From Craspedostauros australis (taxonomy: Eukaryota): a stretch of DNA of 33,639 nucleotides. The stretch is taken from assembly GCA_030167865.1 (NCBI GenBank), contig JALAGF010005973.1, positions 1-33,639 on the forward strand, written 5' to 3'. This document shows positions 1,463 through 32,533 of this stretch, piece after piece. Position numbers and translations under genes: made by a program. Under the pieces are notes generated by a model. The model was not told the origin of the DNA. It was given only the letters and a program-made list of their open reading frames with translations, and ran no database searches. Position 1 is the first letter of the stretch. Each line of letters opens with the position of its first letter.

Positions 1463-3019
1463 TGGTGCTGGACGCGTTTGAGAAAAGAATGAAGCATTGA
1501 AGGAAGAATTGCATCCGAGACAATCGATTTGACGCAACCACAGCCTGTGGCACCAAAACAGGGGCCTTCGTGCTAGATTGTGGTGGCGCAGGAGATGGCA
1601 GCGACAGTGTTTCACGATGCTAAATCTTGGGCAGATCTCAATGACTTCGCCAACACCAACGCAACATTCATCCGCCGCAAGACTCGATTGTTCTTTCCGT
1701 CCATTTGACGGCGGATTCAAATTGTGCGATGGCATTCATTTCTGCCAGGCCATGGTCGATGCAAGGACTATGACGTCTGCATTAGTATCCATTGCTTTCG
1801 ACCTGAAAAATTGATGGCAGTATTGGTACAGTCAGGAGAGTTCCGCGGTATTGTCATGTGTGGCGGGTATTGGATGGCGGCATTGTTGTGCTGTGCGGGT
1901 ACCAGTGTCAAAAGCCTCTCGCCGCACATTGATGCGACGTGGAAGCGGACACGAACAGACAAAAACCCAGTGAAAAGGATGCGTTGGCCTCACATGGTTT
2001 CCTCATTTCGTGGATGTCATCAATCTCCATCTGGTTCCGCCACAACGGAGTCGTACGAGCTACTCTAGTACTGTATGTATGTGGAGTATTATGCATCCTT
2101 GCCGAGGCAATTTTGGAGCCAAACCGAGATGGCGCCAGTTTGGTGGTTTTGCCTTTTGTGCGACAAGCCGTGACGCTAGTCTCGGTGCACAGGGTTGGAT
2201 GCTATCGTATCGCAATGTGTCGCACGGTAATTCATGTCACGTCAGGCTATTGCATTCTGTTGATTTGGACAGTTGCGATCTATTGCGTCTGTCTGGAACC
2301 ATTTCATCCCGACACCAGCTGCTTCCGATCTTCGCGATGGTTGTGATGCACCCCCAAAAGCTCCCTGGAACGAGACAATCTTCCGAGAACGAGCACGACC
2401 ACGAATGTAGAGTGCAAAATGAGAAACGAAAGGGTGGGGATTGAGCGTGCTTAAGCTCCAGTGTCATCGTCCATCGGGGGAAACGTGAAATGAACACCTC
2501 CGTTTGGAATGCTTTCGGGGTAGAGCTAGAGCTGTATGCCATCGGGGTATGGAGGTGATAACGAGGTTGAAATGCGCAAAGCAGATGGTGGGAAGAGATG
2601 GATAGAGAACTGTGCATTCGACAAGTATGGTTGGTTTGAGCTGCGTCCGTAGCATCGCGTTCCTATCATGCTCGTACGCCATAATTTATCGTGTACTGCT
2701 ACACTAGGACATGTGGACAGTCTTGCATGCATGTTTCTATGGTCAATATGAATGTTCATGTTACTGTTGCCGTTACTGATTATGTCGTTGCTGTTGTTAC
2801 GGTCTCAATCGTACTTCATGCAGTGCATCTGCGTGCTTATTATGCATCCACGACGCACGATGGCCGTGCATTTGGTATGGTTGCGTAAGGAAACGCCGAT
2901 GGCTTCGTGCGGGAGCAATCCGCTGCTGTCCAGCTCTTGATCTGGTTCGATCAATGCAGGGATTAGGCTCGTACCATGCTGTTGGATGTGATTGAAGGGA
3001 TCCAAAGAGAAAGGACTCC

Positions 3020-13873: not shown

Positions 13874-14507
13874 CGTTGCGACGGTGTCGGGTGTTGCCGT
13901 TTGTGTTGATTGTAGAGTGTTGTTGCTACTAGTGGAGTATTGTTTGCGTTGGCGTTGGCCTTGACAACGGAAGGTTGGGATCGCAATCACTTTCACAACG
14001 AGACTCGCTCAATGCCCTTGCCTTGCGTTCCCTTGTCTCGTCTTGTCGGAGATGGTGATGATGGTGATGATGGTGATGCTGGTGTCGGTGGATAGTTTGA
14101 TGGCAAGGAAGAGTGGTTGGGTGGACACAACAAAGGAACAAAACAAGAAACGCAAAACAAGGCGGAAGATCGTTGGCCACAATTTGGTTTCCTGAGCCGT
14201 TCGTGACTCATGGAATCACGCATTATTCAATACGGTTACCATAGTATATATTCACACAATGATGTACCATGTGGTATCTTCCGTTGACAACGAGCATTTC
14301 GCTTTTTTGGTTGTTTGCGGAGGGAGAGATGGCGACCATGGCGATTGCTGCCGTTTGGCAAAGACGAGAAGGTGGGCACAGAACGATCTCATTCGACAGT
14401 GGCATTGCACAAGGGAGATACTCTGGACGGCAGCGCGGACTCCCATTGACGACGTCCAAGACAATTCAAATCAACCAAAGTCAATGAGAGGAACTGCAGT
14501 CACTGTG

Positions 14508-14710: not shown

Positions 14711-17515
14711 ATGGGGGCGCAAACAGAATCGCAACGACGCATCAACGCGCTGGGCAAGGCGCTCGGGAAGATGAAGGCATCCACGTCGGAGGCCTGCCAC
14801 TGCTGCGATCAGCTCACGAAGCGAGCGCGGCAGCTGGATTCCTTGACGAGCCCGGCATCCGATGCATCCTCCATGCTATCCAAGGCATCCAACAACCTCG
14901 GTTCCACCGTGGTGCTCATGAAGGACGCCAGGGAGAAGTTCGACACCGTCCGGGATTGCGAACCGGCCATCGAGCGCTTGCACCGCGGCGTCCTCGACGT
15001 GCAAAACGAAAAGTCCGGCAACCGCAAGGCGCGCAACCCATTCCAGGATGACAAAGGCAAGATCGTTCTGTCGGAACAGGATATCTACGCAGCGGCGGAT
15101 TCCATGGAGATCATCCGCGATGCGTTCGACTACTTCATCGATCGCAAGCACTGGAGGAGCACGGCGACGGCCCTGGCCTCGTTGGAACGCGTGCATCAGA
15201 TGGGAGTCAGCAGCATGTGCGTGCTGGCGTCCTTGCATCTGGTCGATGCTGGTCAGGCGGTGCGCATCAAGCGCGTCGTCAAGCAGGACAGCGAAACGCA
15301 CGTCACGCCGTCCAATGAAACGGCTCAGCAGGTATGGCATCCATTCCTTCATCCGCATGCGTGCCTACTGGTTTGCAGCATCTCACCATCACACAACAGA
15401 ACGCAACGCAATGCAAACTGCAAGCTCGCTTTCACTGCCGTCACTCACATGCTCGATCCCTCTGCTCCCCCTTACTGCTCCACTTCTTCTTCTTCACATC
15501 ATATTCATATGCAATGCTCTATCAAACTACCCGTACATCAACCACGCTACAGACGCGTGATCGCCTTTCGCAAGCCTTGCAGAATCGCGATCTGTTGCGA
15601 TCGATCGGAGAGTTCGAAGAGTACCAACCCGTCGAAGCTCGATTGGTCCGAGAACTGCGCGGCATCTTCGAATGCTTGAGCGGCAACGGATTCCAGCTGC
15701 ACCGCGTGCCCAAGGTGGAATCGCCGAACATGCAGCACATCTTCGGACTGCCGGCCAACAGGGTCGTGCGCACGGAGAAGGTCGGCGCCGGTGGATTCAC
15801 CAACCTCATCCAGCGTCCGCTCAAGTCCGGCTTCCCCCACGTCGATGCCTACGGCGAGGCGCGCAAGACGACCGCCTTCTCTTCCATTGATGCCTACCAC
15901 CGCCGCATCAAGGCCGAGCGCAAACGTCACGCGGAGAAGTTCCGGCAGGATCTGGTGGACAGCGCCGATGCTGCGGCCCGCGACGCCGTGCGATGTCTGG
16001 AGCATGCCATGATCGTGGTTGCGGGTGAGAAGAACGTGTACAGGACCATCGTCTCGCCATCCCTCACCAAGATCGCAGACGAAGATGCCGTCAACGACGA
16101 AATTTCGCCATTCTACCGCAAGGCATGCGCGGCTTCGTACTCGCACGTGGTTTCCTGCGTCGTGGACAAGACCATGGACATCATCGAGACCATGTTCCTG
16201 AAGGAGGGTGGCATCGGCCACGCCTCTGGGTCGAAGGGTGACAACCAGCCGCTGTCGGTGCGTTCCGCCGCTTCGGCAGCAGCAGGCGGTCTTCGAATTC
16301 TCGATGGCGTGCGTATGCTCGGCCCCTCCCTTGCCAAGTTGTGCGACATGCCGATCGGAGATGGCAATCCGGAAAAGCCAAGTCTGGCATCCACGCTGTG
16401 CATCGCCATTCACAGAACAACGGTCAAGAACTCTGCCAGAACACTTGAGAATCTCGCGAGGGCCATCCAGGAGGACCCGTTGAAGGGCACGGCGCAGCGC
16501 GCCAAGGATGCCAGAGTGGCACCACTGACCGTCGACGTCGTGCGATCGGTTCGTCTCGTTTCGCCATTTGTCAGCGCCTACAAGAGCGTGTCCAAACGTC
16601 GGCAGTTGCCGTGGGACCCCAACATGGGAGAGGACGCTGGCGAATTGGAGTCCTTCATTCGTTTCCTCATCATGAGACTGCTCAATTCCTTGAAGGGCAA
16701 GGCTCTCACCTACACGAAGCATTCCGGAGATATGGGACAGGTAAGTGATATCATTTTTGCTGGTGCCTTCGCTGGCGCTGGTGCTATTGTGAATGATTCA
16801 TGTGCATTTGCGATACGCCGTGGCATTCTATGATGATATGTGTATGTGATGCTCGCACACTCACAATCCTATTCGCCTTCATTCTGTTGACATCCATGTC
16901 TTCGCTCTTTCCATTATTCACTCGCCGACTCACTCATCTACCAACGACGATGACAACGACGACGACGATGACAACGACGAGTAGGCACGAAGCAGCATGT
17001 TCATGATGAACAACACATTCTATTTGAGAGACGAGCTCGGCCCAAACACTGTGTACTTCGGCGACCCACGCGACGACCAATACCGTATCGAAAGCTCATG
17101 GTTCGTCGATAAGGTGAATCGTCTGTTCGAATCTGAAAAGAGCAAGTACCTGGGCCATTGGGAAGTACTCAACACACACCTCACAAGCGTCGAGCATGAC
17201 GAGTTGGAGTACCAGAAGAAGAACGACACCATCCTCTCGTTGGACAGTGGTCGTCTCATCAAGAACAGGTTCAGCGGTTTCAACGAAGACTTCGAGCGCC
17301 TCTGGGAGGACCACAGGGACCTCTGCGTTGTGGATCCACGCCTGCGTGACACCCTGCAAAAGGAGGTGGCAGGTGTTTTCCTGCCACTCTACAGCAAGTT
17401 TTACGACAAGTACAGCCAAATCCGATTCTCCAAGAAGCATCAAGACGAGTACACGAAGTTCAGCCCATACAAGATCGAGGAGATGCTCGATAAGTTGTAC
17501 ATCGATGCCGAGTAG
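14711..17515 (+). CDS. EXO70: Exocyst subunit Exo70; exons 14711-15331, 15553-16740, 16985-17515 (779 aa)
   Basis: Three ORFs are joined by two phase-0 GT-AG introns. The N-terminus is coiled-coil-like. C-terminal Exo70 signatures: FMMNNTFY, IKNRFSGFNEDFE, VVDPRLRDTL, PLYSKFYDKY..FSKKHQDEYTKFSP..IEEML. Confidence 0.88.
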
Positions 17516-17811: not shown

Positions 17812-19873
17812 TTATTTCTTTGAACCAAACATGTCTCCGAAGAGCTTCTTTGTGACATCTCCAAACTGATAGTCGTCCTTGCCGGTCCACTGATGTGGGG
17901 ATTGGATGGGTGGTGTGGTAGCAAATGAAGGAGACAGTATGAGTACACACATTCGTCGAGCACCTGGCACTATGTTGTGCGAGCCGGAATGGCAGTCCAG
18001 TTGCTCCATGTCGCTATGTTCCCAGGCTGCCGTGACATATCCGAAAGCTGCAATCAGCGAGGCTCAGTCAACACATCACAAGCACGAGGCGTACTTACGT
18101 TGGTAATCGCCTTCTTGGTCAGGTCGCCGAATTCGTAACTAGCGGCAGCCTCCTCACCGAGGTATTCCTTTGCCCAATCCTGACGTCGTTGCTCGATCTC
18201 TGCATGACCAAGGGGTCGACCAAATTGCGAAACATATCAAATACATTAACAATACCAACATGAACAAAAGTATGAGACACGAGCACATGCAACTCAAGGG
18301 TGAAATTCCATTCGAGAAGACGGTACGGAGCACACTGGGCTACAACACAACACAATACCATACAGCACAACGCAACTCACCTCGAGCAACGTCACCGAAT
18401 TCATAGTCATCGTTGCCGGTGAATTCTCCAATCTTGTCCTTCACGCGTGAATCGATGGCACGTGTGATGTCGCCAACTTCATACTCGGTTCCGGTGAATT
18501 CGCTGTACTCGTAACGTGAAGAAAGGAGGGTGAAAGCAAAGGAAGGCGATGTGATGTGGTGTGAGGCATTGAGTATGAAATCCATTCGATTCAAATTGCG
18601 TTCTGCAGAATATCAGCTGACTATCACAGCTGCAAAGTCAAGGGCTGATTCACTCTGTACTTACCCGATCTTGTCCTTAATGTTCTGGTCAATAGCCACC
18701 GTCAGGTCGCCACTTTCGTACGGCTTGCCGGTCATCTACGACATGTCACGGATGATGTATTTGCAGGAGGTTTGACGTGCCCAAATGCAAGATGTGAAGG
18801 AAAGGCAAATAAAGTCGGGACAGTGAGCATCTCAATTTTCTGCAGCTCTTGGATTCACAGGAAGACGTCCACAAACAGATTCACATTCACATGCACAACT
18901 GCATCCAATCATGGGTGCCAAGCACAAGTTGCTATTCACAGGCTTACCTCTTCGACCATTGACTTTGACATTTCATCCATAGCAAGGATGAAATCGCCCA
19001 GCTCATATTCATCCTTTTCTCTCATGCTGTAATCGGGAAGGGGAGTGCGAATGGAAGAAAAGATGGATGATAGGAAGCAGCACAAGTGAGTTCCTGCTGC
19101 GTGTTGTATCATCCCCGAAACGTAGACAGACTGCTCGCCAACTGCTCCATGCTATCTTGACGTGTGATTCTACCGGGTGAGTTCGGGGAAATGCTTGCGG
19201 TGCCCTCCACGATATACTTACGACGAGATTCCCTCCTTGACACGACGATCGATTTCCTTTGAGACGTCACCGATCTGTTCAGAAATGTGGTAGAATTGCA
19301 CGCCATTCATGAAAGGAATGAATTGAATGGGAGCAGATCAAGACATGGAAGCAGGAATGAATGAATTAATGGGTGGATGAGTGAATGAGTGATCTGCCAA
19401 TTCCTACTCGTACAACTTGATCCAATATCTCCCGCACTCTCCAAAGATCGCATTATGTTATTGCTGTGATCCTTTTGCTTACGCGGAACGCCCATCACAA
19501 AAGGTCATGCGAGCCTGCATGCACTCACCTTGTACTCCTCGCTGCCAGTGAAGTCGTTCGTCTTCTGCTGAATGTCATCGATCGTCGATTGGATGGTGTT
19601 GGACAGCTCCATGCCCAAACCGTTCCATTCGTCATCCGTGACCAGGTTGCCCACAAGCTCTTCCTTTTCTTCGGGAGAGGAGAATGTGATGGCGCCATCT
19701 TCATCGCCGGCGGTGTTGTACAGACGCACGCCCGAATGGGATGGGGCAGCGACGAAGGCTGCGGCGGTCTGTCGTTGCAGCGATCGCGCTGCATTCACGT
19801 TGAAACCAGCAACGTTCAACATGGTAGTTGACACAGCAATGGCTGCGATCAGCGCGGATTGTTGGAACTTCAT
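17812..19873 (-). CDS. Uncharacterised probably plastid-targeted YExGD-repeat protein, paralog A; exons 19873-19529, 19274-19222, 19026-18948, 18735-18665, 18502-18381, 18199-18099, 17889-17812 (282 aa)
   Basis: Six GT-AG introns give a continuous frame of 849 nt. The signal peptide ends NVAG-F and is followed by an S/A/R-rich transit-like segment and seven repeats of [FMW]TGxxxYExGD+helix. The exon structure is independently matched by paralog B. Confidence 0.9.
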
Positions 19874-20057
19874 TGTCGATCTCTCTTTCTTGGCTATTGG
19901 CGGTGCTGCGATGCTATGGTGCTCTGCTCAAGTTATGATCGCTTGGTCTCCTTGGGATGAGATGCCGGATCATGCGATGCTGGTGAAGCGAGGGGGTGTC
20001 ACAGGATCGACTTTGTCACGAAGAAAGGATTCGAAGATACTTGACGCGTGAGCGTTC

Positions 20058-20065
20058 TGACGTCA
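20058..20065. promoter_or_regulatory. Palindromic TGACGTCA motif ~185 bp upstream of paralog A
   Basis: Direct reading; bZIP/aureochrome binding is inferred. Confidence 0.3.
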
Positions 20066-20375
20066 CAACGAGTGAAAACAAGGAAATAGAATGGTCAATT
20101 CACGTTTCGGCACACGTTTCGCTTCGACAAACGCAACGCAGTCCCGCCCCAAATCTATTCCTTTGGCTCTAGAACCAACTCTGCCAACAGCATCTCTCCA
20201 GAGCAATCACATCATGCTCTCACCTCGTACATACCATGCCACACCACACCACACATCGTACTCTCTAGAATACTCTCGGATGAGCTCTAAATATACCCCG
20301 CTTTTTGCATCCTATTGCATCATACAGTTGTTTAGTACGATACCCTGTCATGAGTATGGTACACACACTTCACTT

Positions 20376-23300
20376 TCAACCCACCCGATGCAATGTTCGC
20401 GCGCTGGTCTGTCCCATGTCGGTCATCTTGAGCATCGCATGGTACTTCTCGATCGCAGATTCCATCGATCTTCGCGCCGCGATCAGTGATTGCTTGGAGA
20501 GATTGTCTGCCATGAGGTTCTTTCGGAGGACGATTTCGATCAGATTCCACAGCGTGTCGATCTTCTTGAGGGGAACGAAGAGGACGTCTCCCTTTTCTGG
20601 GAGTCTGGTGCGTCCCTGCAGGGTGTGCGTGGATGACAGGACGGAGGTGACGAGCTCGCAAGCCTCGGCGAACAGACCGTACTTCATATACAGAGTCAGC
20701 AACGCTGACGGGTCTCCTCTGAAGCTTGTGTTGTTGTGTGCGTTCGCTCCGCTGCATGCAAACCCACCGCGCTTTGCAAATCGCTCGCCGCCCAGGCAGG
20801 TCTCGAGCCACATCGGCAGCTGCGCTGGAGAGCCGAATTCGTTGATACTGGAGACGAAAATGGCGTTGGCGACATCAGCAGCAATGAGCTTGTCCTGCAC
20901 GGCTTGGAAGTTGACGACCTTTTCAAGCACAGCCATCGCATTCTTCTCGATCAGAGTCTGCGTGTGCAACGAGCAAGACTTGTATTGCTCGGCTCGGATG
21001 AAGGAGAAGGTCGGTCCCTTGTCGAAGTACGACGCCGTGTTCTGGATCTGCCGCAGAGTCGGTCGTGACGTGGTCCAGATACGCTTGTCCGAGGTCTCGC
21101 CTTCGCTCTCCTCGTTGTCGCTCTGAGAGGCGGCAACGCCGATGGCGATGGGGACGATGTGTGCCTCCAGCAGCGTGCGGATAGCGTTGGAGAGGATGTC
21201 TTCGCCACCAGAGCCACATGCGCCCGTGGTTTGCCGGTAGTTGTTCGCCACCGTTTTGGCCAGCAGCAACGCCACTGGGTAGTAGCCCAAATCGAACAGC
21301 TTCTTGACGATGTCCAACGTCTCGTGAATTTCGCTCATGAAGCCACTCTTGGCGACAAGGGGATCGACCGATTTGTCCATGAACAGGGTGCGGAGCGCCA
21401 AGCTCAAGATGACGCGGCCATGTACTTCCGCAGGGGTCATTAGGAGGTCGATCTTGCCCGTCTCCCTGTCATTGCCATCATCTTCATCATCATCGTCTTC
21501 CACCACTGCAGCCGATGGGCCTGCAGTGCCCCGACTTCGCTTGTTGCTCATTTGCAGCATGGTGGCATCGTTGCTTTGGCTGGTGCTCACAATGTCATCG
21601 GAGTCGGATCCACCAGAGACAAAGTACTTCGTTCCCTTGTCCTTGACCAGTCCGAAGGAAACCCACGCCCCGAGCGATGCCATGGTCAAATCTTCGACGA
21701 TGATGGTATCCCGCAGGATCGATGCGCCCAGACTGTGAGCCGCCGTGTATCCTCCTGACTTCATGGCGCCCACTGCCGTCACGTACCGCACGTCCATCGA
21801 TTGCGCCGCACGTCGCCATTGGCGCTGCGATGTATGCAACGAGAAGAGCGCTCCGGCGTAGTCCGAGATTCGGAATGGCTCCTGCGAGGTGGCGCGGAGG
21901 GTGTAGAAGTTCTCGCTGCCAAGGGCCAGCTTCTCGAGCACGGTGGACGCGATCTGGTACAGATCGTGGGATGATTCACCATCCTCGCCATCGCCGGATC
22001 CGATCTTCTGGCATGCGGCGAGCAATTCTTGCAGCGCGCCACGGTCCACCATATCTCGCACGAGCTGTCGGAAGTCGGCATCCCGCCGACCTTCATCCGG
22101 GTTCTTGACGCACGCCTCGAATGCCTGGTCCCAATCCCTTGCGTTCACGGAGTGCTGGAACAAGGAGGACCAGAGGTTGATGTACTCTGGCATGGCCAGG
22201 CATTCCTCCGAAGGGATGCTGTCCTGGAATGTGGAGATGGTCCCGTTGATGAGCTGGATGACCATCGCCGAACCTTGCTGGGTGTAGTTGCTTTCCTTGC
22301 GTGTGGGTGATCCAATGTGACGCGAAACGACCGTGATTCTGTGCATGAGTTGCGTGAGATGGACGAGCAACGCGGCAAGCTCTTGGATGGCTGCTGCCAC
22401 CTCCTCCTCTTGAAACCGGGCGTTGCCTGCGGCGATCGAGGGCAGGAACCAGTTCTTGACGGACTCCAGCTTGGCCACGCGATCGAAATCGAAGCCAGCG
22501 GGCGCGGTGCCGTCACTCATTGCCAAGTTGCGCAGCATGCCTGACAGCTGCTTCTGCCAGTCTTTCATCATGGGAGTCGCCGACTTGCGACGCACGGATT
22601 GCAACGCTTCGATCGCCAGACCCGTTGTGTCTGGATCAATCGTTGGGTGGCCGAAACCGTTGGAGATGAGCAGGGCGCTGGCACGCTCACGCAGCTGCAG
22701 GATGGCATCCTCATCCTGCCCGCCCTGCTTGAACCACGCGTGGGACTCGATCAGCATACATTCGGCGGCTGTCTCGTTGCGGCGGCTCACATGATCCGTG
22801 GATTCGTGCTCCATGTGAAAGGAAACGTACGGCGCCAACAGTCTGAGCGCGAGCCGCGGGTAGTCGGTGACGACATCCATGTCCTTGGGGGTGGGAAGCG
22901 CACCCAGCTCGAGCTGCTGCTCACCATCATCGTGCGCGGGTGACGCAGCGAAGGAGATGTTGACTCGCTGCGAAGCGAAGGCAGAATGAACAAAGGCAAA
23001 CCCAAGCAACATGGTGACCTCGGCTGGGGAATTGGTGACGAACGTTGTTGCATCCATGCGTTGCGACGATGCCATCATGACAACATCCAAGGCTGTCGTC
23101 ACCTTCGCATTGGTGACTGGAAGTAGGCTCTGCGCGTCGTCACCAAAACTGAGGCGTTTGCCTGGAGGAGCGAAGCCGTCGGGGCTGCCATCGAAGTTGA
23201 CGGTCTTGCGACGCGTCGTGTGGTAGGCCGCATCGGGCATGGGGACGTGCTGCGACGTGGTCCAAAGCACTGCCACGGACTGAAAGTACGCTCGGCGAGC

Positions 23301-25880
23301 GACAACTTCGGCATCTCCACCTTGGATGAGGTCGGACAGCAGCAACCAGCGGCCTAGGTACATGCGCCGCATGGAGTCCGCACATAGCTTGGCCAGGCTG
23401 CATGCGCAATGACGCAGCTGGCTGCTGGCCATTACCATGCGTCCCAGCTTGCGCTCATCTTGCCGACCTTCCACGTCGGCACTGGCGACGCTGAGACCTG
23501 GAAGGTGCATACTGGATGGATCGGGCGTGGAGACGGCCCAATTCATGAGCTCCTCCACCGAGATCGATTCTCCGATCACCTCGAGCATCCCGTGCTCTTC
23601 GTCGCTGATCCCATTGGAGCCAGAGTCGGTCCACGCCCACGAGGCGAGGTTCTTGAAGTTGGATAGCATAGGATCGATGGTGTCCGGCGTGACCAGCGCA
23701 AGGGTGCCGGCGGAAGTCATCCTGCAAATGTCCTGCTCCAGTCGCGACAGATCGATGGACTTGCCACCATCCTGCTCCACCGCCGAGAGCAAGGACAGAG
23801 CGGACCGATCGAGGATGTTCCACTTCTCCTTCTCCAGATTGTCGACGCTGGTTTGATCCTGCGTGTGCGGCGGCTGGACGAGGGTCGTGGTGACGCCGGA
23901 ACGCACCACGATTTGGATGTTCGTATTTTGAGATTCGGCCCAGCCAGACAGCAGTGGATGACGCAGCGCTTCCTCCTCTTCCAGAACTTGCAACAGAAAC
24001 TGCCGCCATCGGCTATCGTGCTCGTGAAGCTTCTGCTGGTTCTTTTCGATGCGGGCCTCGATGTCGTCGTCGTCCATGTCATCGATGTTCATGTCGTGAT
24101 CGTCGTCGTCATCACCACGGCCGTCATCATCGCCGCTGCAATCCACCATCGACTGGTACACCTGCTGCGGGCTGGTGAGGATTCCTTGGGCGGCGTCTGC
24201 GACCGGCATGATGGCCTTCATGGGCGTTCCGAGAGGCTGCGCGCTCTGCTCCTTCGTGCGCCAATCCTCCATGGCTCGCATCGTCTCGAGCTCGACGGAA
24301 TAGGTCTCGGAGTAGGGTTGCGTTGTATTGTAGCCTCGCACGAGCTTTGCCATCGAAGCGCGGATGCAGTTGCGCGATGGTGGCAAAACAGTTCCCGTGC
24401 CGCGCGGGTAGATGGGACGGAAGAGGTACTTCATGTACATGGCGTCGATGGATTGCAGGCCGCTGTGCAGATCGGTACCAATGTCGTCGGGCATGAAGGA
24501 AAGGGCCTTGACTCGCCGCGTCTCCTCCGCCGCGGCCATGTCGAGACTGCCTTCGCAGCAGTTGATGGTCGGCGTGATCCCCACCATGGTCATGAAGCTC
24601 GGTGGGTAGGTGGCATCGATGATGCCGGTCTTGGATCTGTAGAGTGTCGCCAGCGTGCATCTGGACGTTGCGGGCAAGAAGGACATGCTGACGAGCGACG
24701 TGGCCGTGTTGGGGACCTGCAATGACAGGCACTTGGCCTCGGCGCTGTTCTGCTGCTGTCCCTCCATGACGACGAGGTGGCAGGTGGAAGCCGCGGGCGT
24801 CGACTGGCCGACGTCAAAGTAGGATTGGTGCACCTGGACGTGCAGAACGAGGGCGTAGGCCTGGCTGTAGAGGCGCGACGATAGAGCCACCGAGTTGGGA
24901 CGGCCGCTCCATTCCGATGGTCTCGGGACGCTGGCCTGATCGAGTTCGAGCTTGTAGACCTCGTGGGGACTCAAGCCTGCCTCCGGCTGCAGCGTCCACT
25001 TGCGGATGCTGGCATCTGAGTGCACCGTGAAGAGGAAGTAGGGATCCAGGAGGGGATTCGGTCGCGACGCCAGGCACATGGCCGCCACGGGTGGCATGTC
25101 GAGCACGCTGCCCTCGACCTTGCCGATGATGGCCTCCGACGTGCGCGTGAGGATCTTGAAGACGCTGCTCTGCATGCCCTCGAGGCAGTGCGACTCGCTC
25201 CAGATGGCCGACGTGGCCTTGTCGATGTCGACGGAGAAGATGAAGGGCGCCAGCGCGACGCAGACGTAGGACCTGGTGACGAAGGTGACCATGTTGGGCT
25301 GCAGCGTGGAGTTGGCCACCTGCTCGCTGACTTCGTTGGTCGCCGCCGTGCTGGGCATGTAATCGGAGACGGCGAGGATCTTCGCAGGCGCAGGATGCGG
25401 CATGAGCTGGTCGGTGCATCGGAAGACGAGGAAGGTGCCCCTGGTGTCCACGATGACCACGCGGATGGCGAGGCCGGCTGCCGTGTCCTCCGCGAAGGCG
25501 TGCACCTTGGCGATGGCGTCGCTGAGCTGGCCGCTGGCAATGATGTTGGTCAAATCCAGCTGGATGAGCTTGGGCGACTCCATCGGATCCGACGTCCAAG
25601 ACAGCGCCAACGACAGAACGTGCGGGTCGTCCGGCAGGGCGGAGGTCGTCAGGATGACGTCCTTCTGTCTCAGGTTGAGCGTCGACACGCTGGCCGCACC
25701 CATCAGCGCGTCCTCCGACGATGCATCGTACTTGTCCTGCCGCTCGAACGGCGACGATCCTGATGCTGCATCTCTCACAGCGGAGGCAGGGACTCTGCGG
25801 ATGTGGCAGTCTTCATCCACCGCGTAACGTCGGGGTGATCCCTCGATGCCAGGCAGCACGAGAGGGATCTCCGTCGACAT
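20376..25880 (-). CDS. NUP160: Nucleoporin Nup160/Nup120-like, intronless, 1834 aa
   Basis: Beta-rich N-terminus with LFTVHSDASIRKW and an alpha-helical C-terminus. Nup160-like segments: LWSSLFQHSV..WDQAFEACVKNPD..RR..FRQLV, DYAGALFSLH..QWRRAAQSM, LPMWLE..DPSALLTLYMKYGLFAEACELV and VPLKKIDTL. Confidence 0.82.
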   Translation of the reverse strand: MSTEIPLVLPGIEGSPRRYAVDEDCHIRRVPASAVRDAASGSSPFERQDKYDASSEDALMGAASVSTLNLRQKDVILTTSALPDDPHVLSLALSWTSDPMESPKLIQLDLTNIIASGQLSDAIAKVHAFAEDTAAGLAIRVVIVDTRGTFLVFRCTDQLMPHPAPAKILAVSDYMPSTAATNEVSEQVANSTLQPNMVTFVTRSYVCVALAPFIFSVDIDKATSAIWSESHCLEGMQSSVFKILTRTSEAIIGKVEGSVLDMPPVAAMCLASRPNPLLDPYFLFTVHSDASIRKWTLQPEAGLSPHEVYKLELDQASVPRPSEWSGRPNSVALSSRLYSQAYALVLHVQVHQSYFDVGQSTPAASTCHLVVMEGQQQNSAEAKCLSLQVPNTATSLVSMSFLPATSRCTLATLYRSKTGIIDATYPPSFMTMVGITPTINCCEGSLDMAAAEETRRVKALSFMPDDIGTDLHSGLQSIDAMYMKYLFRPIYPRGTGTVLPPSRNCIRASMAKLVRGYNTTQPYSETYSVELETMRAMEDWRTKEQSAQPLGTPMKAIMPVADAAQGILTSPQQVYQSMVDCSGDDDGRGDDDDDHDMNIDDMDDDDIEARIEKNQQKLHEHDSRWRQFLLQVLEEEEALRHPLLSGWAESQNTNIQIVVRSGVTTTLVQPPHTQDQTSVDNLEKEKWNILDRSALSLLSAVEQDGGKSIDLSRLEQDICRMTSAGTLALVTPDTIDPMLSNFKNLASWAWTDSGSNGISDEEHGMLEVIGESISVEELMNWAVSTPDPSSMHLPGLSVASADVEGRQDERKLGRMVMASSQLRHCACSLAKLCADSMRRMYLGRWLLLSDLIQGGDAEVVARRAYFQSVAVLWTTSQHVPMPDAAYHTTRRKTVNFDGSPDGFAPPGKRLSFGDDAQSLLPVTNAKVTTALDVVMMASSQRMDATTFVTNSPAEVTMLLGFAFVHSAFASQRVNISFAASPAHDDGEQQLELGALPTPKDMDVVTDYPRLALRLLAPYVSFHMEHESTDHVSRRNETAAECMLIESHAWFKQGGQDEDAILQLRERASALLISNGFGHPTIDPDTTGLAIEALQSVRRKSATPMMKDWQKQLSGMLRNLAMSDGTAPAGFDFDRVAKLESVKNWFLPSIAAGNARFQEEEVAAAIQELAALLVHLTQLMHRITVVSRHIGSPTRKESNYTQQGSAMVIQLINGTISTFQDSIPSEECLAMPEYINLWSSLFQHSVNARDWDQAFEACVKNPDEGRRDADFRQLVRDMVDRGALQELLAACQKIGSGDGEDGESSHDLYQIASTVLEKLALGSENFYTLRATSQEPFRISDYAGALFSLHTSQRQWRRAAQSMDVRYVTAVGAMKSGGYTAAHSLGASILRDTIIVEDLTMASLGAWVSFGLVKDKGTKYFVSGGSDSDDIVSTSQSNDATMLQMSNKRSRGTAGPSAAVVEDDDDEDDGNDRETGKIDLLMTPAEVHGRVILSLALRTLFMDKSVDPLVAKSGFMSEIHETLDIVKKLFDLGYYPVALLLAKTVANNYRQTTGACGSGGEDILSNAIRTLLEAHIVPIAIGVAASQSDNEESEGETSDKRIWTTSRPTLRQIQNTASYFDKGPTFSFIRAEQYKSCSLHTQTLIEKNAMAVLEKVVNFQAVQDKLIAADVANAIFVSSINEFGSPAQLPMWLETCLGGERFAKRGGFACSGANAHNNTSFRGDPSALLTLYMKYGLFAEACELVTSVLSSTHTLQGRTRLPEKGDVLFVPLKKIDTLWNLIEIVLRKNLMADNLSKQSLIAARRSMESAIEKYHAMLKMTDMGQTSARTLHRVG

Positions 25881-26529
25881 CGTCGTATCGCTGTGGTCTG
25901 GTTACCAGTACTATTATGCAATACGGGAGTAATAGAATGAACGATACAGCAGTATCCTCTCTGTTGTCTATTCTACCACCAAATCCTTGGTTTCAAATTG
26001 TGGCGTTGCTTTTTTGCCTCCGATGGCTGTTGTTGGTGGTGCTTCGTGTTTGGCGCGGCATTGTGTTGCAGCGCTTGTCGTTGTTGTTGGTGGTGTCTCT
26101 TGTGTGTGTTTGTGGTTTGATTTCCTTTGATTTGTGTTGGTCTGGTTCTAGAAAAGGTACCACTCAGATACCACACAGAAAGAGTCACTGGATCAATTGA
26201 AGAAACAAGAACACACTGATGTTTCAGAACAATTGTATTTTGCGGACAGTTAAAGCGGACAGAAGTTTACGATCATCATGTGTTTCGTCTGCAACTGTAT
26301 ACGTCTTCCATTGTCGTAACCAACCAAAAAGCGAGATCGCTGCGAAGATCACGGAGGCAACCGTTGTCCTATTTCTTGTTTTCTGTTACCAGCAGCGTTG
26401 ATGCCGATTGGGAGACGACCATCAACGACGCCACCATCAACACCACCATCATCATCAACAACAACAACATCCACCGCATAGCACAACGCAGAACACATCG
26501 CATTTCACTGATAGTGGATCGATAGAAAG

Positions 26530-28386
26530 ATGGCGGCGAAGACGAAGTCAAAGACGAAGGCATCGCTGGTGCCTGCGAAAGCAAGCCCCAAGCAGACGAA
26601 TGCTGCGATGGGACCCAAGAGCGAGGTCGTGGAACGCGCTGTGGCTGCTTTGGTCAAGCACGTGACGAAGGGCAAGGAGGGCAACGATCTGCTGCAGGAG
26701 GATGCCACCGTTCAGGTGCAGCTCTCCATGCAGATGGCACCCATGCACAGCAGTCCCAAGCCAATCCGGCTGCAGATCCCGAACGCGCTGTACCAGCTTG
26801 CCGAAACCGACGACGCCAAATCCGCCGGCAACACGAAGAATGAGAAGAAGAAAGCCGCGATGGAATTGGCACAGGAGGCGGAGGTCTGCTTGATCGTCAA
26901 GGAGGAATCGAAGTCATGGGTGCAGGAGATGATCGCCAACAACTCCACGCAGATGGGCTGCATCAAGAAGGTCCTGGGCCTGCAGTCGCTGCGCAAGAAG
27001 CACGCGCAGTACGATCAACGCAGACAGCTCCTCTCCAAGTACAACTTCTTCATGGCCGACGATCGCATCCTTCCCATGCTCACGAAGCATCTGGGAAAGG
27101 ACTTCTTCAAGGCCAAGAAGCTGCCTATTCCAATCAAATTGACGCGCAAGGAAGCACTGCCCTTTGCCGTCCAACGCGCGCTCGCCGCCACATTCATGTC
27201 CATTCCGGCTGGAACGTGCATCACCATCAGGTACGCTCGATGAATCAAACATGCAGCAGACGTCAGCAACATGGGCATGGTACACATCCATACGGTGTCA
27301 TTTATATCGACGCCTGCGTTGATAGCCGTGTCAGCACAACTGGATTATTGCCAAAGTTCAATGGTCCGATCCATTCGTTCATCAACATGCTTCATGCAAA
27401 TCTCATTTCATTATTGCGCCATGCCCTGCAATTACATTCCACTTCATCTGACATCGATTGTTGCTATTATGACCGTCACAATCGCCCAATGCCATCCACA
27501 ACACAACAGAGCCGGCCACACGGGAATGGACGAGCAGGACATCGCCGCCAACATCCTCGCCATCGTCCAAGGTGCCGCTGACAAAATTCCACGCAAATGG
27601 GCCAACGTCCAAGCCATCAACATCAAAACACCAGATAGTGTCGCGCTGCCAATCTACAACAAGAGTCCGGCAGCGCTGTTGGAGATTGCCCAAATGGCGG
27701 GTCTCCAGGCAATCAAACCGAAGCAGTACAAGGTGCTGGAACAGGCAAAGAAGTCAGCTGCCGCAGCCAAAAAGCAGCAACAGTCCAAGAAGCAGTCCGG
27801 CACAAAACATGACACTAAGGATGACACCGCGACGCCAACGCCAGCATCGACGCCGACCAAAAAGGACAAACCACAGGCCGCCAAAAAGTCAAAGACGGAG
27901 CTGAAGAGTCCCTTGCTCAAGGCCCTCAAGAAGCAGAAGCAAGATCAGAGAGATGCACAGAAGGAGCAGAAAGAAAAGACTACGGACAAGGATGTCACAT
28001 CCACGCCCACCAAGAGCAAAACATCGGACGAATCATCCAAGGGCAAGAAGCGCAAATCGTTGGATAAGAAATCGCCCAAGAAATCACCTGCTGCAAAGCA
28101 GAAGGATGACAACCCCACCAGCGGCACTCCCACTAGTGCGAAGAAGCAAAAGAGTAGCGACAGCGACACAAAGAAAAAGGACTTCATTTCTGCGAAGAAA
28201 TTCAAGGGCTCCAAATCGGGATACATCTTCACCCTGGGCAAGCAGGGTCTCGGATACTACGTCGATCACAAGCCGGTCGTGAACAAGATGGTCCTGGATG
28301 CGCTCACGAGACAGTCCAAGCAGTCCCGGCGCGGCGGTGCACGCAACAACAAGAAGAATAAGTACAAGGGCACGAGGCGGTTTTGA
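26530..28386 (+). CDS. RSL1D1: Ribosomal L1 domain-containing protein (RSL1D1/Utp30/Cic1-like); exons 26530-27230, 27510-28386 (525 aa)
   Basis: Motifs KPIRLQIP, EVCLIVK, IKKVLGLQSLRKK, YNFFMADDRILPML..LGKDFFK.KKLPIPI, GTCITIR|AGH, W.NVQAINIKT..SVALPIY, followed by a Lys-rich tail. The intron is phase-2 GT-AG. Confidence 0.92.
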
Positions 28387-28497
28387 GCACGCACATGGCA
28401 TAACCAAATGCTCTAGTTATCAATGTACTCTTAGCGCTCTCCTCTCGTGGTACAGAAATTGGAATGGCTCTCGATTCAACTAATGGCTGCGCACTCC

Positions 28498-29721
28498 TCA
28501 CTCCCATTTCACCCGGTGCTTGACTTTCCTCCGCGCGAACAACGCCAACACGAGCATGGACAACGCATCCATTCCAACGCAGACACCACCCACATAATGC
28601 ACACGCCCTTGATGCGCCAACAATGTAGTCCCCACAATGGGTCCAACAATTCTTGCCGCGCTTAACAGACAGTGCTGCAAATCCTGGTCGTCGTCCAAGA
28701 CTTGTCGCAGTTCCATGGCGACGCCAGTCGTCACAATCTGAGTGCAAAGCCCAATGCCAACTGCCGGCCAATTTGCCATCTTCATTTGCGCAAGTGCACA
28801 CCAAGCGATGAGATGCCCCACAAACCCCAACCATACCACGCCTCTGCATCCGGCACGCTGCGTCAATGGTCCCATGACGAAGGCGCCAAACAGCGCCGTC
28901 GCCGCCCGGTCCATGGCCATGTAGTGCGTCATTTCTGAGAACAGATAGGCCTGCTTCCAAATCAACGGAAGCGTCGTGGAATAGATGGAAGACGACAGTG
29001 AATTGCATGCATGGAGCAGAAGGAATGGAAGGACCTTGGACTGCATCGCGGTTCGGATGGAATTTGAAATGCGTTGAAAGAGTGTGATATCTGTGCGTGG
29101 ATGCAATGACGTACCGCCGCTGCTGTTGTTGTCGTATGCTTGCTGTTGATTGGGCAAGAACAGATAGGAGAATACTACGGACGCCATAGATAGGTACATG
29201 GAGTAACGCGCCCCGGTGTATAAATCATCGCCCTGTGATATCCGCGAGAAGGCAACGCCAACGAGCGGACCAATCACTGCCCCAACGGCATACGCCATGT
29301 TCATGAGGCGCAATACGACATGGGCATCGTCGTGCGTGAGCGCTTGTGCTGTCGCATTGGCCACCAGAAATGTCGCCTGAAAGAGTGCCGGGATCTTGCT
29401 CCATAGCAGCATATCCAAGTGCGTCGCGTTGGACACGATTGCGTATGAGATAGCGCACGACCCGAAGACGATGATGTTGGTGGTGCGAACCCCAACTGTG
29501 CGCAGGAGCCACCGCACGATGGGCATCCCGATGATTTGGATCAGCACGAAGATTGTCTGCAGTTTGCCATAGACCAAGGTCGCGTCATCGCCATCGCGGG
29601 ACAGCGCCTCCACTTGGAACGGTTCGAGACATCGCTGCAATTGGGAGCATGCCGCGTGCAGCGCGATGTTGATGCAAGTGATCCAGATCGCACGTCGGCG
29701 TTGTCGCGTTTCTCGTGTCAT
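28498..29721 (-). CDS. Major facilitator superfamily transporter, SLC22A18-like, divergent (407 aa)
   Basis: Multiple hydrophobic helices, with YGKLQTIF.LIQIIG.PI, LLWSKIPALFQ..FLVA, AYAVGAVIGPLVG and SAARIVGPIVGT.LL. Confidence 0.8.
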   Translation of the reverse strand: MTRETRQRRRAIWITCINIALHAACSQLQRCLEPFQVEALSRDGDDATLVYGKLQTIFVLIQIIGMPIVRWLLRTVGVRTTNIIVFGSCAISYAIVSNATHLDMLLWSKIPALFQATFLVANATAQALTHDDAHVVLRLMNMAYAVGAVIGPLVGVAFSRISQGDDLYTGARYSMYLSMASVVFSYLFLPNQQQAYDNNSSGGTSLHPRTDITLFQRISNSIRTAMQSKVLPFLLLHACNSLSSSIYSTTLPLIWKQAYLFSEMTHYMAMDRAATALFGAFVMGPLTQRAGCRGVVWLGFVGHLIAWCALAQMKMANWPAVGIGLCTQIVTTGVAMELRQVLDDDQDLQHCLLSAARIVGPIVGTTLLAHQGRVHYVGGVCVGMDALSMLVLALFARRKVKHRVKWE

Positions 29722-29932
29722 AGCGATAGAGTGCGTGCAAGTAGAGTCCCATGCGACTATGAATCCGTATCATCTTCAAGGTCGTCTGCGTTCTGCTATG
29801 TGTGGGCAGTGTTGCGATCAAAGTCGTTCTGCCGTGCAACGAAGGCGACGGTACCAACGGCTATGATGACAAGCTCACGCTGACTTCGCTCACAGGAGAG
29901 CAACTGCTCTGGCTGCAGCGACGGATGTGGTC

Positions 29933-29948
29933 AGAGAGAGAGAGAGAG
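29933..29948. repeat. (AG)8 microsatellite
   Basis: Direct reading of the sequence. Confidence 0.9.
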
Positions 29949-30405
29949 CGTATGCACGAGTGTGATCGTCGTTGTCTGCTTGCTGCTGGTATCCTCTTGC
30001 GTGCCGTTTGTGTGTGTGGCTTTGTTGTGAGGCAGTGTGCACATCCTTCCACGTCTCAGTTGGCCGTGGTGTGTTTCGGAATACATCCCGAAGAGCTATT
30101 CGAATTGGGATCCAAAAAGGGTGCTTGCGAATCAGTACCGAATTGAACGTGACTTCTCCATTTTCTCCGAAATTTGGCCTCATTTTGAGTTAGCTCTTCA
30201 GATTTACGACAAAGATCTGTTTCGATCTTCTTCTTTGAGGTGTCAACACGAACGATGCTGACGAGAACACACAACGCACACACGTGCACAACTGCACGCA
30301 GAGGCGCTCACAACGATCACAAACCAGGATATCGTAGATCATCGAACGCATTCTATTGCCACAGCAGATAGCACAAAACATACAAGCACCAGTACAATAC
30401 TCACC

Positions 30406-32533
30406 ATGAAGATTTCATTCACAGCAGTTGCGTTGCTCGCCTGCCTCAGCACCAGCAGTCAGATGGCCGCCGATGCGTTCACTGTGATGCCATGCACCAG
30501 TGTCCGATCATCCACAGTCGTCGCCGCACCATTCCGGCTCGCTGCAGCGCAACCGGACAGCCCCGATCCAGCGGCAGAATCAGGAGAACCCAGCAAGGAA
30601 GAGAAGGACGAAGCGGTTGGAAACTTGCTGGCAAATGATGAATGGGACGGATTGGGAATGGAATTGTCCGAGATCGTCAAGGTCGCCGTCGTGGAAGACT
30701 TGAAGAAGAATGCCAGAGACTTTTTGGGCAAGGACGAATACAAGGTGCGTCGTATTGCCTTGCGTTGAGTAATCACTGCGTCCTTGCTTCATTGCTCCAT
30801 TGCTCCATTGATTGCACACAAGCAAAGATCATCTGATGAATCTTCATCTCACTTCAACCTCCGTCGATCTCAATTCTTTCTGCCGTCCGATCCCGTCCAT
30901 CACCGCCGTTGCCATTGCCGTCCTCGTCGGGGTGCGCCATTGCCGTTATTGCATTACCATGCATCAACTTGCATACAACAATCAGGTTGGAGATATTTGC
31001 AAGGAAGTCGACACTCGTGTAAAAGGTGAAGTGGCAAAGTGAGTCAATGAGAATGATTCTGTACTGTACTGTGCCGTTCTGTGCTGAACTGAAGTCGCGA
31101 ATCATTCACGTTCGATGATGCCAATGGCTGACTGGAGGTATTTTAATTGATATCACACGAATCTTCGTGGATACGGACAGGTTTCACATGCATAGTTGTA
31201 CCACTTGATCATGGACTCACCCACTTCCATAATTCATGCCGTGACTCGTCCTTTCCTCTTGGATGACCTTTCGCCATGGCACCATGCATTGTAGAATGAG
31301 AGGCAAAGATGAATACGAACTGGGTGACTTTGTACTGGCGATGGATGACATGTCCAAGTCGGTGACGGAAGATGTGAGTACCATCGTGAAGCTTATCCGT
31401 CCCTGATACGATATCCTCGTTTGCTCTTCTGTGCAACACCTGTGCGCATTCGCCTTTATTGCCACCGATGCCAGCATGCGAGATTTCTCACACATTTCTA
31501 CTCCGCTGCTACTGCGATGACAGCTGACGGGCAAACCATACGAGGCAGGTGATCTGTCAAGGGAGATCGATAGTCGGGTGAAGGACAAGGTCAGGTAAGT
31601 CTCAAGGCGTGATCGCATATTCTGCAAATACCACTGTGCGCAAAAGGGGGTACCTTGGCGCTATGGCGATGAAACATGAGCGTGTTGATGAACAATCATT
31701 TGCACACCAACCGCTTGCTAACCAGCACACTCTTTCCACCATTCAATGCTTCTTCAATCAATGATGACGACAACGCTGATGACAACTTACGCCCACGCTA
31801 TTGACGATCATGACTGCAGCGATTTCACTGGCAAGCCATACGAGGCCGGTGACTTGTCGAAGGAGATTGATCGACGCGTGAAGAACAGAGTCAATGAGTT
31901 CACAGGAAAGGACGAGTACGAATTTGGTGATATCGCGAAAGGTACGTGAAGCAAACACGTGTAGTCTGGGTTGCGCATGGTATGGAGATGCCGCAGAATG
32001 ATACACTGAACAAATTGATGTTCCTGTGACGCACAGCATGCAGCGGGTCTCACTTACGCCATGTTATTCATCACGCTTACCAACGGTAATCTCTGTCATA
32101 TTCTTTCACGGTTTGTATGGCTTGAACACAACAGAAGTCGAAGAGAGACGCAAGGTGTGGGTGAAGGACTTTTTGGGAGAAGAGGCAGCGGCCAACTATC
32201 AATTTGGCGACGTCACCAAAGAGGCCATCTCCAGAGTAAGTGGGTTTGTCGCGATTGCGTGCCAACGAATATTCATGCCAATTCATCCAAAGAACGTGCC
32301 TCGTTTACCAATGTCTTGGCTTCACGTGGTTTCTCACCGAGCTGACGCCCGTGCTTTTGCGTGGCGATCGTCCACGCCATGCTCCCTTTGCTACTCATAC
32401 AATCTTTTCATCGCAAACATTATCCTACCATGCGTACTCGCAGTTCACGGGGAAGGACAAGTACGAATTCGGAGACGTGACGAAGAAGATCATGGGCAAC
32501 CTGTTCGGTACCAAGAAGAAGGACGGCAAATAG
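30406..32533 (+). CDS. Uncharacterised probably plastid-targeted YExGD-repeat protein, paralog B; exons 30406-30744, 30986-31038, 31295-31373, 31524-31594, 31820-31941, 32135-32235, 32444-32533 (284 aa)
   Basis: Six GT-AG introns give a continuous frame of 855 nt. The signal peptide ends AADA-F (ASAFAP-type), followed by a transit-like segment and seven [FML][TRL]GKxxYExGD+helix repeats. Internal exon sizes (53/79/71/122/101) are identical to paralog A. Confidence 0.92.

What the first reader, a model, noticed from the sequence alone, without database searches (positions are those of the whole stretch)
17812..32533. Linked pair of paralogous genes for an uncharacterised plastid-type protein built from seven YExGD-helix repeats
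Seen: two 7-exon genes pointing away from each other, 10.5 kb apart and separated by NUP160, RSL1D1 and an MFS gene. Each encodes a signal peptide with Phe at +1, a transit-like stretch, a conserved cap (EEKxExVGNLxxxDEWxGLGMELS) and seven 22-26-aa repeats. In B these are FLGKDEYKVGDICKEVDTRVKGEVAK / MRGKDEYELGDFVLAMDDMSKSVTED / LTGKPYEAGDLSREIDSRVKDKVSD / FTGKPYEAGDLSKEIDRRVKNRVNE / FTGKDEYEFGDIAKEVEERRKVWVKD / FLGEEAAANYQFGDVTKEAISR / FTGKDKYEFGDVTKKIMGNLFG. Mature regions are roughly 60% identical by hand alignment, while presequences and introns are not alignable, implying an old duplication with both copies under selection. Inference: a multivalent plastid scaffold, since an aromatic turn motif plus an amphipathic helix recalls the logic (not the sequence) of Rubisco linkers such as EPYC1/PYCO1 or of LEA/apolipoprotein-like membrane binders. 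The two products could form a heteromer. I recognise no characterised family.
Basis: partly seen in the sequence, partly recalled or inferred. Interest (0 to 1): 0.75.

Follow-up and report, generated by a model that had tools for sequence, protein, structure and literature searches.

The report
Undescribed algal chloroplast helix-repeat protein pair
Two real, spliced diatom genes encode members of an undescribed family of chloroplast-targeted proteins made of seven short helices; relatives occur in many diatoms, a dinoflagellate and Euglena, some carry a membrane anchor, and the family more likely coats or organises a chloroplast membrane surface than links Rubisco.

Summary
Both 7-exon genes are intact and share all six intron positions. 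All 12 introns are bridged by contigs of one run, and both models equal stored proteins (284 and 282 aa). Mature parts are 128/215 identical, with near-saturated silent sites. No Pfam, NCBIfam, PDB or Atlas family fits the pair, and no paper was found. The family is large (894 clusters at 50% identity). Named members are diatoms, Symbiodinium and Euglena; two pattern scans of bacterial and archaeal genomes found none. New here: the same YxxGD-helix repeat also sits in a second class with a hydrophobic proline hairpin (one such gene elsewhere in this genome) and in a Thalassiosira protein with a hydrophobic tail. The Rubisco-linker idea fits poorly: the proteins are acidic (pI 4.3-4.9), helical, spacer-free, conserved repeat by repeat, and 50% identical in a dinoflagellate. 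Best guess (0.4): a stromal amphipathic-helix coat or scaffold on a plastid lipid surface, working with the anchored paralogues. Linkage of the two genes looks like a leftover of local duplication. Localisation and function are untested.

The parts
17812..19873 (-). Gene A, 7 exons, 282 aa; the faster-evolving copy
   Evidence: Model; six joints; identical to P0318; end branch 0.52 against 0.24 for B
19673..19873 (-). A presequence and linker: signal peptide, Phe at +1 (residue 24), Ala/Ser/Arg-rich transit-like stretch, acidic linker
   Evidence: Sequence read by eye; no predictor run
19529..19672 (-). A cap helix and start of repeat 1; one residue shorter than B, with Gln at a nearly invariant Lys (position 102)
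17812..19274 (-). A exons 2-7: rest of repeat 1 and repeats 2-7 (core Tyr at 19007, 18720, 18483, 18405, 18137, 17871)
18200..18380 (-). A intron 5; a stored transcript-derived protein (P0170, 236 aa) reads into it and stops
   Evidence: first 223 residues identical to A, then intron sequence
20376..25901 (-). NUP160 gene, one long open frame; bystander
26530..28386 (+). Ribosomal-L1-domain gene (RSL1D1-like); bystander
28498..29721 (-). MFS transporter gene, head to head with gene B; the same arrangement is seen in 1 of 19 longer related loci (L038)
30406..32533 (+). Gene B, 7 exons, 284 aa; close to the family consensus
   Evidence: Model; six joints; identical to P0001
30406..30597 (+). B presequence and linker: signal peptide, Phe at +1 (residue 25), transit-like stretch, acidic linker
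   Evidence: Read by eye; pLDDT under 50 for residues 15-61
30598..30744 (+). B cap: one long predicted helix (residues 64-107) with the conserved D-E-W-x-G motif, then the turn of repeat 1
   Evidence: mean conservation 0.73
30986..32533 (+). B exons 2-7: repeats 1-7 (core Tyr at 31314, 31539, 31839, 31917, 32197, 32462), each a G-K-x-x-Y-x-x-G-D turn plus a helix of 11-19 residues; basic C-terminal end

Best explanation
A and B are soluble, stroma-side members of an undescribed repeat family of algae with complex plastids. The family forms a protein coat or scaffold on a plastid lipid surface (thylakoid face or plastid lipid body). Shown: intact spliced genes, strong conservation, no transmembrane stretch in A or B, and paralogues that carry the same repeat next to a hydrophobic proline hairpin. 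Predicted: each repeat is a tight turn plus an amphipathic helix. Inferred: (1) the presequence takes the protein into the stroma; (2) the narrow apolar stripe of each helix lies on a lipid surface or packs on a neighbouring repeat; (3) hairpin-type paralogues anchor the array in one leaflet and recruit A/B-type proteins through repeat-repeat contacts; (4) the cap helix oligomerises or binds a conserved partner. The two linked genes are the remains of an old local duplication; B stays near consensus and A has drifted.
For: A second class (23 hits at E<=0.01 of 77 candidates; 21 aligned) has the same repeats (profile-profile probability 99.95) around a helical hairpin with two prolines. Its best 19-residue hydropathy is 1.6-2.2 in 8 of 8 members checked, against 0.7 for B and 0.3 for A. 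One such gene lies in this genome at G000:C2840. The Thalassiosira pseudonana catalogue holds two cap-type proteins, one hairpin-type, and one with repeats followed by a long hydrophobic tail (PMC6683858 supplement rows). Helices are amphipathic: 68% of apolar residues lie within 60 degrees of the moment axis. Repeat number can expand in the hairpin class (9 or more in P0204) and is mostly 6-8 among cap-type members, which suits a string of surface helices more than a closed fold. Predicted local helices are confident but the whole fold is not (82 residues at pLDDT 90 or more, pTM 0.43). Hairpins with a proline-rich region anchor known algal lipid-droplet proteins (PMC8100218, passages).
Against: No localisation, lipid-binding or interaction data exist. 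Mature proteins are acidic (median pI 4.77, 113 sequences), which disfavours binding to anionic thylakoid lipids (lipid make-up recalled). The charge pattern is not the apolipoprotein class A one: 49% of Lys/Arg lie more than 120 degrees from the apolar face and Asp/Glu peak at 60-120 degrees. A HeliQuest-type score (formula recalled) passes 0.68 for only 3 of 7 helices in B and 2 of 7 in A. The same repeat in two species is 64% identical but two repeats in one protein only 37%, which points to specific protein contacts. Nothing shows that the soluble and hairpin classes meet.
Confidence: 0.4

Rival explanations
1. Docking-motif system: the Y-x-x-G-D-helix unit binds one conserved plastid protein other than Rubisco (a photosystem, ATP synthase or shell component). 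Soluble and anchored paralogues use the same unit to tether that partner, in the way one motif is shared by matrix and membrane proteins of the Chlamydomonas pyrenoid (PMC7673724, listing and start of abstract only).
For: The core Tyr, Gly and Asp are nearly invariant in every repeat. Each repeat is conserved by position (0.64 against 0.37). The unit recurs in three architectures. A Symbiodinium natans protein is 50% identical to B over 225 residues.
Against: There are no spacers between units, so seven bulky partners could not bind at once. No partner is identified. Conservation is spread over the whole helix, not only the motif.
Confidence: 0.25
2. LEA- or CsbD-like stress protectant: a hydrophilic protein that folds into amphipathic helices on drying, freezing or salt stress and shields plastid membranes or enzymes.
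For: Very charged (94 of 220 mature residues in B), amphipathic helices, low global fold confidence. One exon of A gave a weak CsbD hit (E 0.15, 12.4 bits against a cut-off of 40).
Against: No CsbD or LEA family appears among the 25 listed matches for 48 members, the 25 listed of 44 for 113 members or the 14 for 21 hairpin members. Conservation of about 0.7 per column is high for LEA-type proteins (recalled).
Confidence: 0.15
3. Rubisco linker of the pyrenoid matrix, like EPYC1 or PYCO1.
For: Plastid-type presequence and repeated aromatic motif with helix. The linker of T. pseudonana is still unknown (10.1101/2023.10.26.564148, passages), and that species has this family. One known condensing element works through helices (RbcS-STAR; PMC13655443, passages).
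Against: pI 4.86 (B) and 4.32 (A) against 10.03 for PYCO1. Repeats are 19-29 residues with no disordered spacer, against about 60-80. Known linkers share no sequence homology with each other, whereas this family is about 50% identical between a diatom and a dinoflagellate whose Rubisco is form II (recalled), and is present in Euglena (form IB, recalled).
Confidence: 0.1
4. A self-contained soluble helical bundle or filament that binds small ligands (cations, pigments or lipids in transit) with the acidic turns or a hydrophobic core.
For: Residues about 90-210 are modelled at pLDDT near 90. Conserved Asp and Arg sit on either side of the apolar stripe and could form bridges between helices.
Against: pTM is only 0.43. 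No Cys or His ligand set is conserved. It does not explain the hairpin class.
Confidence: 0.1

Closest known systems
PYCO1 (Phatr3_J49957) and EPYC1, Rubisco linkers
   Same: Plastid-targeted tandem-repeat proteins with repeated aromatic motifs.
   Different: They are basic, disordered, with about 60-80-residue repeats, and share no homology with each other. This family is acidic, helical, spacer-free and conserved across phyla.
Hairpin lipid-droplet proteins StLDP and LDSP, and plant oleosins
   Same: The hairpin class has a hydrophobic helical hairpin with prolines, flanked by amphipathic arms.
   Different: No oleosin-type Pfam match among 21 members. The targeting looks plastid-type, not cytosolic. 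A and B themselves have no hairpin. StLDP and LDSP sequences were not compared.
Exchangeable apolipoproteins, perilipins and phasins
   Same: Strings of amphipathic helices broken by turns. Weak sub-threshold hits: Phasin in 3 of 113 members (best E 0.0053); Apolipoprotein E 0.023, 14.8 bits against a cut-off of 90, in one divergent member.
   Different: No hit reaches a curated cut-off. The turn is a conserved G-K-x-x-Y-x-x-G-D, and the charge pattern is not class A.
CsbD/YjbJ and LEA proteins
   Same: Hydrophilic helical repeats; one weak hit.
   Different: Far below cut-off and not repeated across the family lists.
'Novel protein one' of Dorrell et al. 2017 (PMC5462543)
   Same: Also a domain-less plastid protein of ochrophytes with one dinoflagellate homologue, spread through the plastid as a GFP fusion (passages).
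   Different: Its sequence could not be seen (supplement not held). Its alignment is 16 taxa by 103 aa, with no match outside ochrophytes except one dinoflagellate, whereas this family reaches Euglena. Identity is unlikely but not excluded.

Membership tests
Rubisco linkers (EPYC1/PYCO1 type) | Mostly disordered, with spacers between stickers | tested here: not met
   Model has helices over most of residues 64-276 with short turns between them; PYCO1 described as mostly disordered
Rubisco linkers (EPYC1/PYCO1 type) | Repeat length about 60-80 residues | tested here: not met
   Spacing 19-29 residues; expected values
Rubisco linkers (EPYC1/PYCO1 type) | Net positive charge | tested here: not met
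   pI 4.86 and 4.32; family median 4.77; PYCO1 10.03
Rubisco linkers (EPYC1/PYCO1 type) | Pyrenoid localisation and Rubisco binding | not testable with these tools
   No diatom Rubisco complex was modelled; interaction tables of the pyrenoid preprint could not be seen
CsbD / LEA | Pfam model above its cut-off | tested here: not met
   CsbD 12.4 bits against 40 on one exon; P0001 has no Pfam family at E<=0.1
CsbD / LEA | Stress induction and folding on drying | not testable with these tools
   No expression series available
Apolipoprotein / perilipin / phasin | Pfam or NCBIfam model above cut-off | tested here: not met
   only weak hits far below cut-offs
Apolipoprotein / perilipin / phasin | Tandem amphipathic helices | tested here: met
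   Moment 0.39 against 0.24 shuffled over 680 helices
Apolipoprotein / perilipin / phasin | Class A charge pattern (Lys/Arg at the interface, Asp/Glu opposite the apolar face) | tested here: not met
   the definition of class A is recalled
Oleosin-like hairpin proteins (for the paralogue class only) | Hydrophobic hairpin with central prolines | tested here: met
   helices 141-153 and 167-179 around the prolines in a low-confidence model (mean pLDDT 56.7)
Oleosin-like hairpin proteins (for the paralogue class only) | Oleosin or caleosin Pfam match | tested here: not met
   None among the 14 families matched by 21 members at E<=0.05
Ribbon-helix-helix RHH_6 (PF16762) | Whole domain with beta ribbon | tested here: not met
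   P0204 reaches 29.1 bits (cut-off 27) over several repeats, but the best stretch covers profile positions 21-52 of 77 only; no strands are predicted in either model
Any solved fold | Structural match over most of the protein | tested here: inconclusive
   Foldseek best E 0.96 and 0.45; VIA-align best Z 5.3, nearly all on the single cap helix
Diatom plastid-targeted proteins | Signal peptide with F/W/Y/L at +1 and a transit peptide | tested here: inconclusive
   Seen by eye in A and B; crude pattern in 110 of 135 homologues without control; SignalP and ASAFind not available

The most novel reading that the evidence does not exclude
The Y-x-x-G-D-helix repeat is the building block of an unknown membrane-shaping system of complex plastids. 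Hairpin-anchored members seed, and soluble members such as A and B extend, a coat that spaces or holds thylakoid lamellae or links them to the pyrenoid. This would suit its presence in diatoms, a dinoflagellate and Euglena, groups that share three-thylakoid stacks and diadinoxanthin (recalled), with Euglena having borrowed it from a red-plastid alga.
Probability: 0.15. Interest if true: 0.85.

Novelty: new variant of a known kind. Interest (0 to 1): 0.52.

Why it matters
How diatoms and related algae shape their thylakoids, plastid lipid bodies and pyrenoid is largely open; even the Rubisco-condensing factor of T. pseudonana is unknown. This family is highly conserved, has several copies per genome, comes in soluble and anchored forms, and has a named model-organism member (Thaps3a_22732). 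It therefore gives a concrete set of genes to tag and knock out. The pairing of the two genes in this window is by itself ordinary.

Tried and rejected
Complex prediction of B (62-280) with A (66-282): no answer, score 0.00 in two runs, alignments not used, partner fold uncertain; no evidence either way. Sequencing runs: no holder is on record as RNA; one run listed, guessed to be RNA. Its depths were not used to rank the genes, and its lack of cover at 21149-28246 is no finding. Library searches without a usable match: Pfam on exons and members, NCBIfam, PDB sequences with profile A1 (0 at E<=1), Foldseek and VIA-align, ESM Atlas (no feature hit for B; 0.77 and 0.76 to unnamed clusters for the hairpin type; all TM under 0.3). 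Recurrent weak Pfam names (Phage_int_SAM_5 in 45 of 113, CD1375-like in 28 of 113, RHH_6) were rejected as likely sums of short helix matches over repeats; their alignments were not inspected. Prokaryote genomes: 0 of 49 and 0 of 117 pattern matches confirmed. Viral contigs: 0 of 101. These are pattern scans and miss distant relatives. Absence from green algae, plants and red algae was not tested: only 150 of 894 hits were listed and most carry no name. Test that A and B are sisters: not rejected (p-AU 0.294), so the tree does not prove that the duplication predates the split from other species. Synteny: NUP160, the L1-domain gene and EXO70 were found in 0 of 68 related loci, of which 19 are 4 kb or longer. 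Literature: six repeat motifs in full text, 0 papers; five forms of the id 22732, 0 papers; topic searches gave no description of the family. Supplements: 22732 absent from the one file of PMC5299434 and seen only in the catalogue sheet of the cut file of PMC6683858, whose fraction tables were not visible. The Euglena id was not found in the cut file of PMC7403612, in five files of PMC6366073 or in the text of 10.1101/573709. Six motifs were absent from three PYCO1 files. Supplements of PMC13602068, PMC5462543 and the bioRxiv preprints could not be seen and may list these proteins. Earlier scan findings: none by sequence or place; one unrelated by words.


Full report
Observation. Gene A runs 19873 to 17812 on the minus strand and gene B 30406 to 32533 on the plus strand. 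Each has seven exons, six GT-AG introns in the same phases and identical internal exon lengths. Contigs of one public run, guessed to be RNA, skip exactly these 12 introns. The models equal stored proteins P0001 (284 aa, named Craspedostauros australis by its source) and P0318 (282 aa). The run and the stored proteins may come from one data set, so they count as one line of evidence. A third stored protein reads into intron 5 of A and stops at 236 aa. The genes between are NUP160, an L1-domain gene and an MFS gene.

Age and selection. Mature parts are identical at 128 of 215 residues, while 31 of 44 four-fold sites differ and introns align no better than shuffles. That means an old duplication with both copies kept by selection. 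In a tree of 62 chosen homologues A groups with four unnamed sequences (100/96) and not with B, and its end branch is twice as long. The test that holds A and B together does not reject them as sisters (p-AU 0.294), so the date relative to species splits is open. A has lost one residue of the cap helix and a nearly invariant lysine. Local duplication recurs: Epithemia has two adjacent locus tags, 87% identical, that form their own clade, and T. pseudonana has two cap-type genes. None of 19 related loci of 4 kb or more held a second copy, and one kept the head-to-head MFS neighbour of B. The linkage needs no functional explanation.

Family. A search with the repeat region gave 465 proteins at E<=0.001 among 1692 candidates. 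A profile found 894 clusters at 50% identity, 150 of them listed. Named members are diatoms from many groups (Pseudo-nitzschia, Nitzschia, Cylindrotheca, Amphora, Epithemia, Ditylum, Proboscia, Thalassiosira, Cyclotella), Symbiodinium natans (50% identical to B, in what looks like a fused gene model) and Euglena gracilis (35%, seven repeats). Most hits are unnamed, and I looked up names for only 30. Pattern scans of bacterial, archaeal and viral collections confirmed nothing. Seven repeats are the rule (110 of 141). No Pfam, NCBIfam, PDB or Atlas family describes the pair, and searches of the paper library by motif, id and topic found no description. That library lacks most subscription journals, and several supplements were closed or cut.

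Anatomy. After a variable presequence (column conservation 0.30) come a conserved cap (0.73) and seven repeats (0.68-0.75). The model of B shows one long cap helix and then helices of 11-19 residues joined by short turns that carry G-K-x-x-Y-x-x-G-D. Confidence is high locally and low globally (pTM 0.43). The helices are amphipathic (moment 0.39 against 0.24 shuffled) with a narrow Val/Ile/Leu stripe, and the proteins are acidic. A given repeat is far more alike between species (64%) than two repeats within one protein (37%), so each has its own role. A and B have no membrane-spanning stretch (best hydropathy 0.3 and 0.7).

The repeat is modular. A second class lacks the cap and has a hydrophobic helical hairpin with two prolines between repeats, with hydropathy 1.6-2.2. 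This genome has one such gene on another contig, with a plastid-type start; its exon structure was not fully built. The T. pseudonana catalogue in the supplement of PMC6683858 shows the same set plus a protein with repeats followed by a long hydrophobic tail; the first cap-type one is Thaps3a_22732. So in two paralogue types the repeat module sits on a likely membrane anchor.

Mechanism. I favour a coat or scaffold on a plastid lipid surface, built from soluble A/B-type and anchored hairpin-type proteins (0.4). Only the sequence features are shown; targeting, lipid contact and co-assembly are inferred. Against it stand the acidity, a charge pattern unlike apolipoproteins, and mixed lipid-binding scores. 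A shared docking motif for a conserved protein partner is the next best reading (0.25), then a LEA-like protectant (0.15), a Rubisco linker (0.1) and a soluble ligand-binding bundle (0.1). The linker reading fails three testable features, disorder, repeat length and charge, and is hard to square with conservation in hosts whose Rubisco forms differ (forms recalled).

Papers seen. Passages: 10.1101/2023.10.26.564148, PMC10288592, PMC6683858, PMC13655443, PMC5462543, 10.1101/573709 (109), PMC8100218. Supplement searches or rows: PMC6683858, PMC7403612, PMC6366073, PMC5299434, PMC10288592. Listing only: PMC7673724.

Verdict. A real, undescribed and strongly conserved repeat family of complex-plastid algae, with soluble and anchored members and a model-organism handle. 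It is worth tagging and knocking out. The gene pair itself is an ordinary old duplicate, and the function is untested. Interest 0.52.

Noticed in passing
G000:C2840, about 11800-13900, minus strand (L004, L089): A third family member of the hairpin class, with a plastid-type start, several repeats split by introns and a divergent hydrophobic proline hairpin.
   Followed up: partly
window 18200-18380, minus strand: A stored transcript-derived protein (P0170) retains intron 5 of gene A and ends after five repeats; unspliced RNA or an alternative form.
   Followed up: partly
PMC6683858 supplement file 1, row 5246 (T. pseudonana catalogue): A protein with YKFGD-type repeats followed by a long hydrophobic C-terminal part; a third architecture. 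The tail recalls DUF1279-type membrane domains (recalled, not tested).
   Followed up: no
P0204 (unnamed, 676 aa): Hairpin-class member with a tandem expansion of the repeats (at least 9 by profile).
   Followed up: partly
L038:8-148 (minus) and 1605-2345 (plus): The head-to-head MFS neighbour of gene B is kept in one other organism; 1 of 19 longer loci.
   Followed up: partly
P0029 and P0040 (Epithemia clementina ACA910_005234 and 005233): An independent adjacent duplicate pair, 87% identical.
   Followed up: yes
P0157 (Symbiodinium natans, 670 aa): The family domain lies between an unrelated hydrophobic N-terminal part and a GMP-synthase-like tail; probably a fused gene model.
   Followed up: no
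P0262 (Euglena gracilis EG_transcript_13980): Divergent member with seven repeats, a long presequence and no clear cap motif; a candidate for transfer from a red-plastid alga, not tested by a tree.
   Followed up: partly
window 20376-25901, minus strand: NUP160 appears as one open frame of over 1800 codons without introns, next to intron-rich genes.
   Followed up: no
window 15319-17515, plus strand: An EXO70 gene ends about 300 bases from the stop codon of gene A, tail to tail.
   Followed up: no
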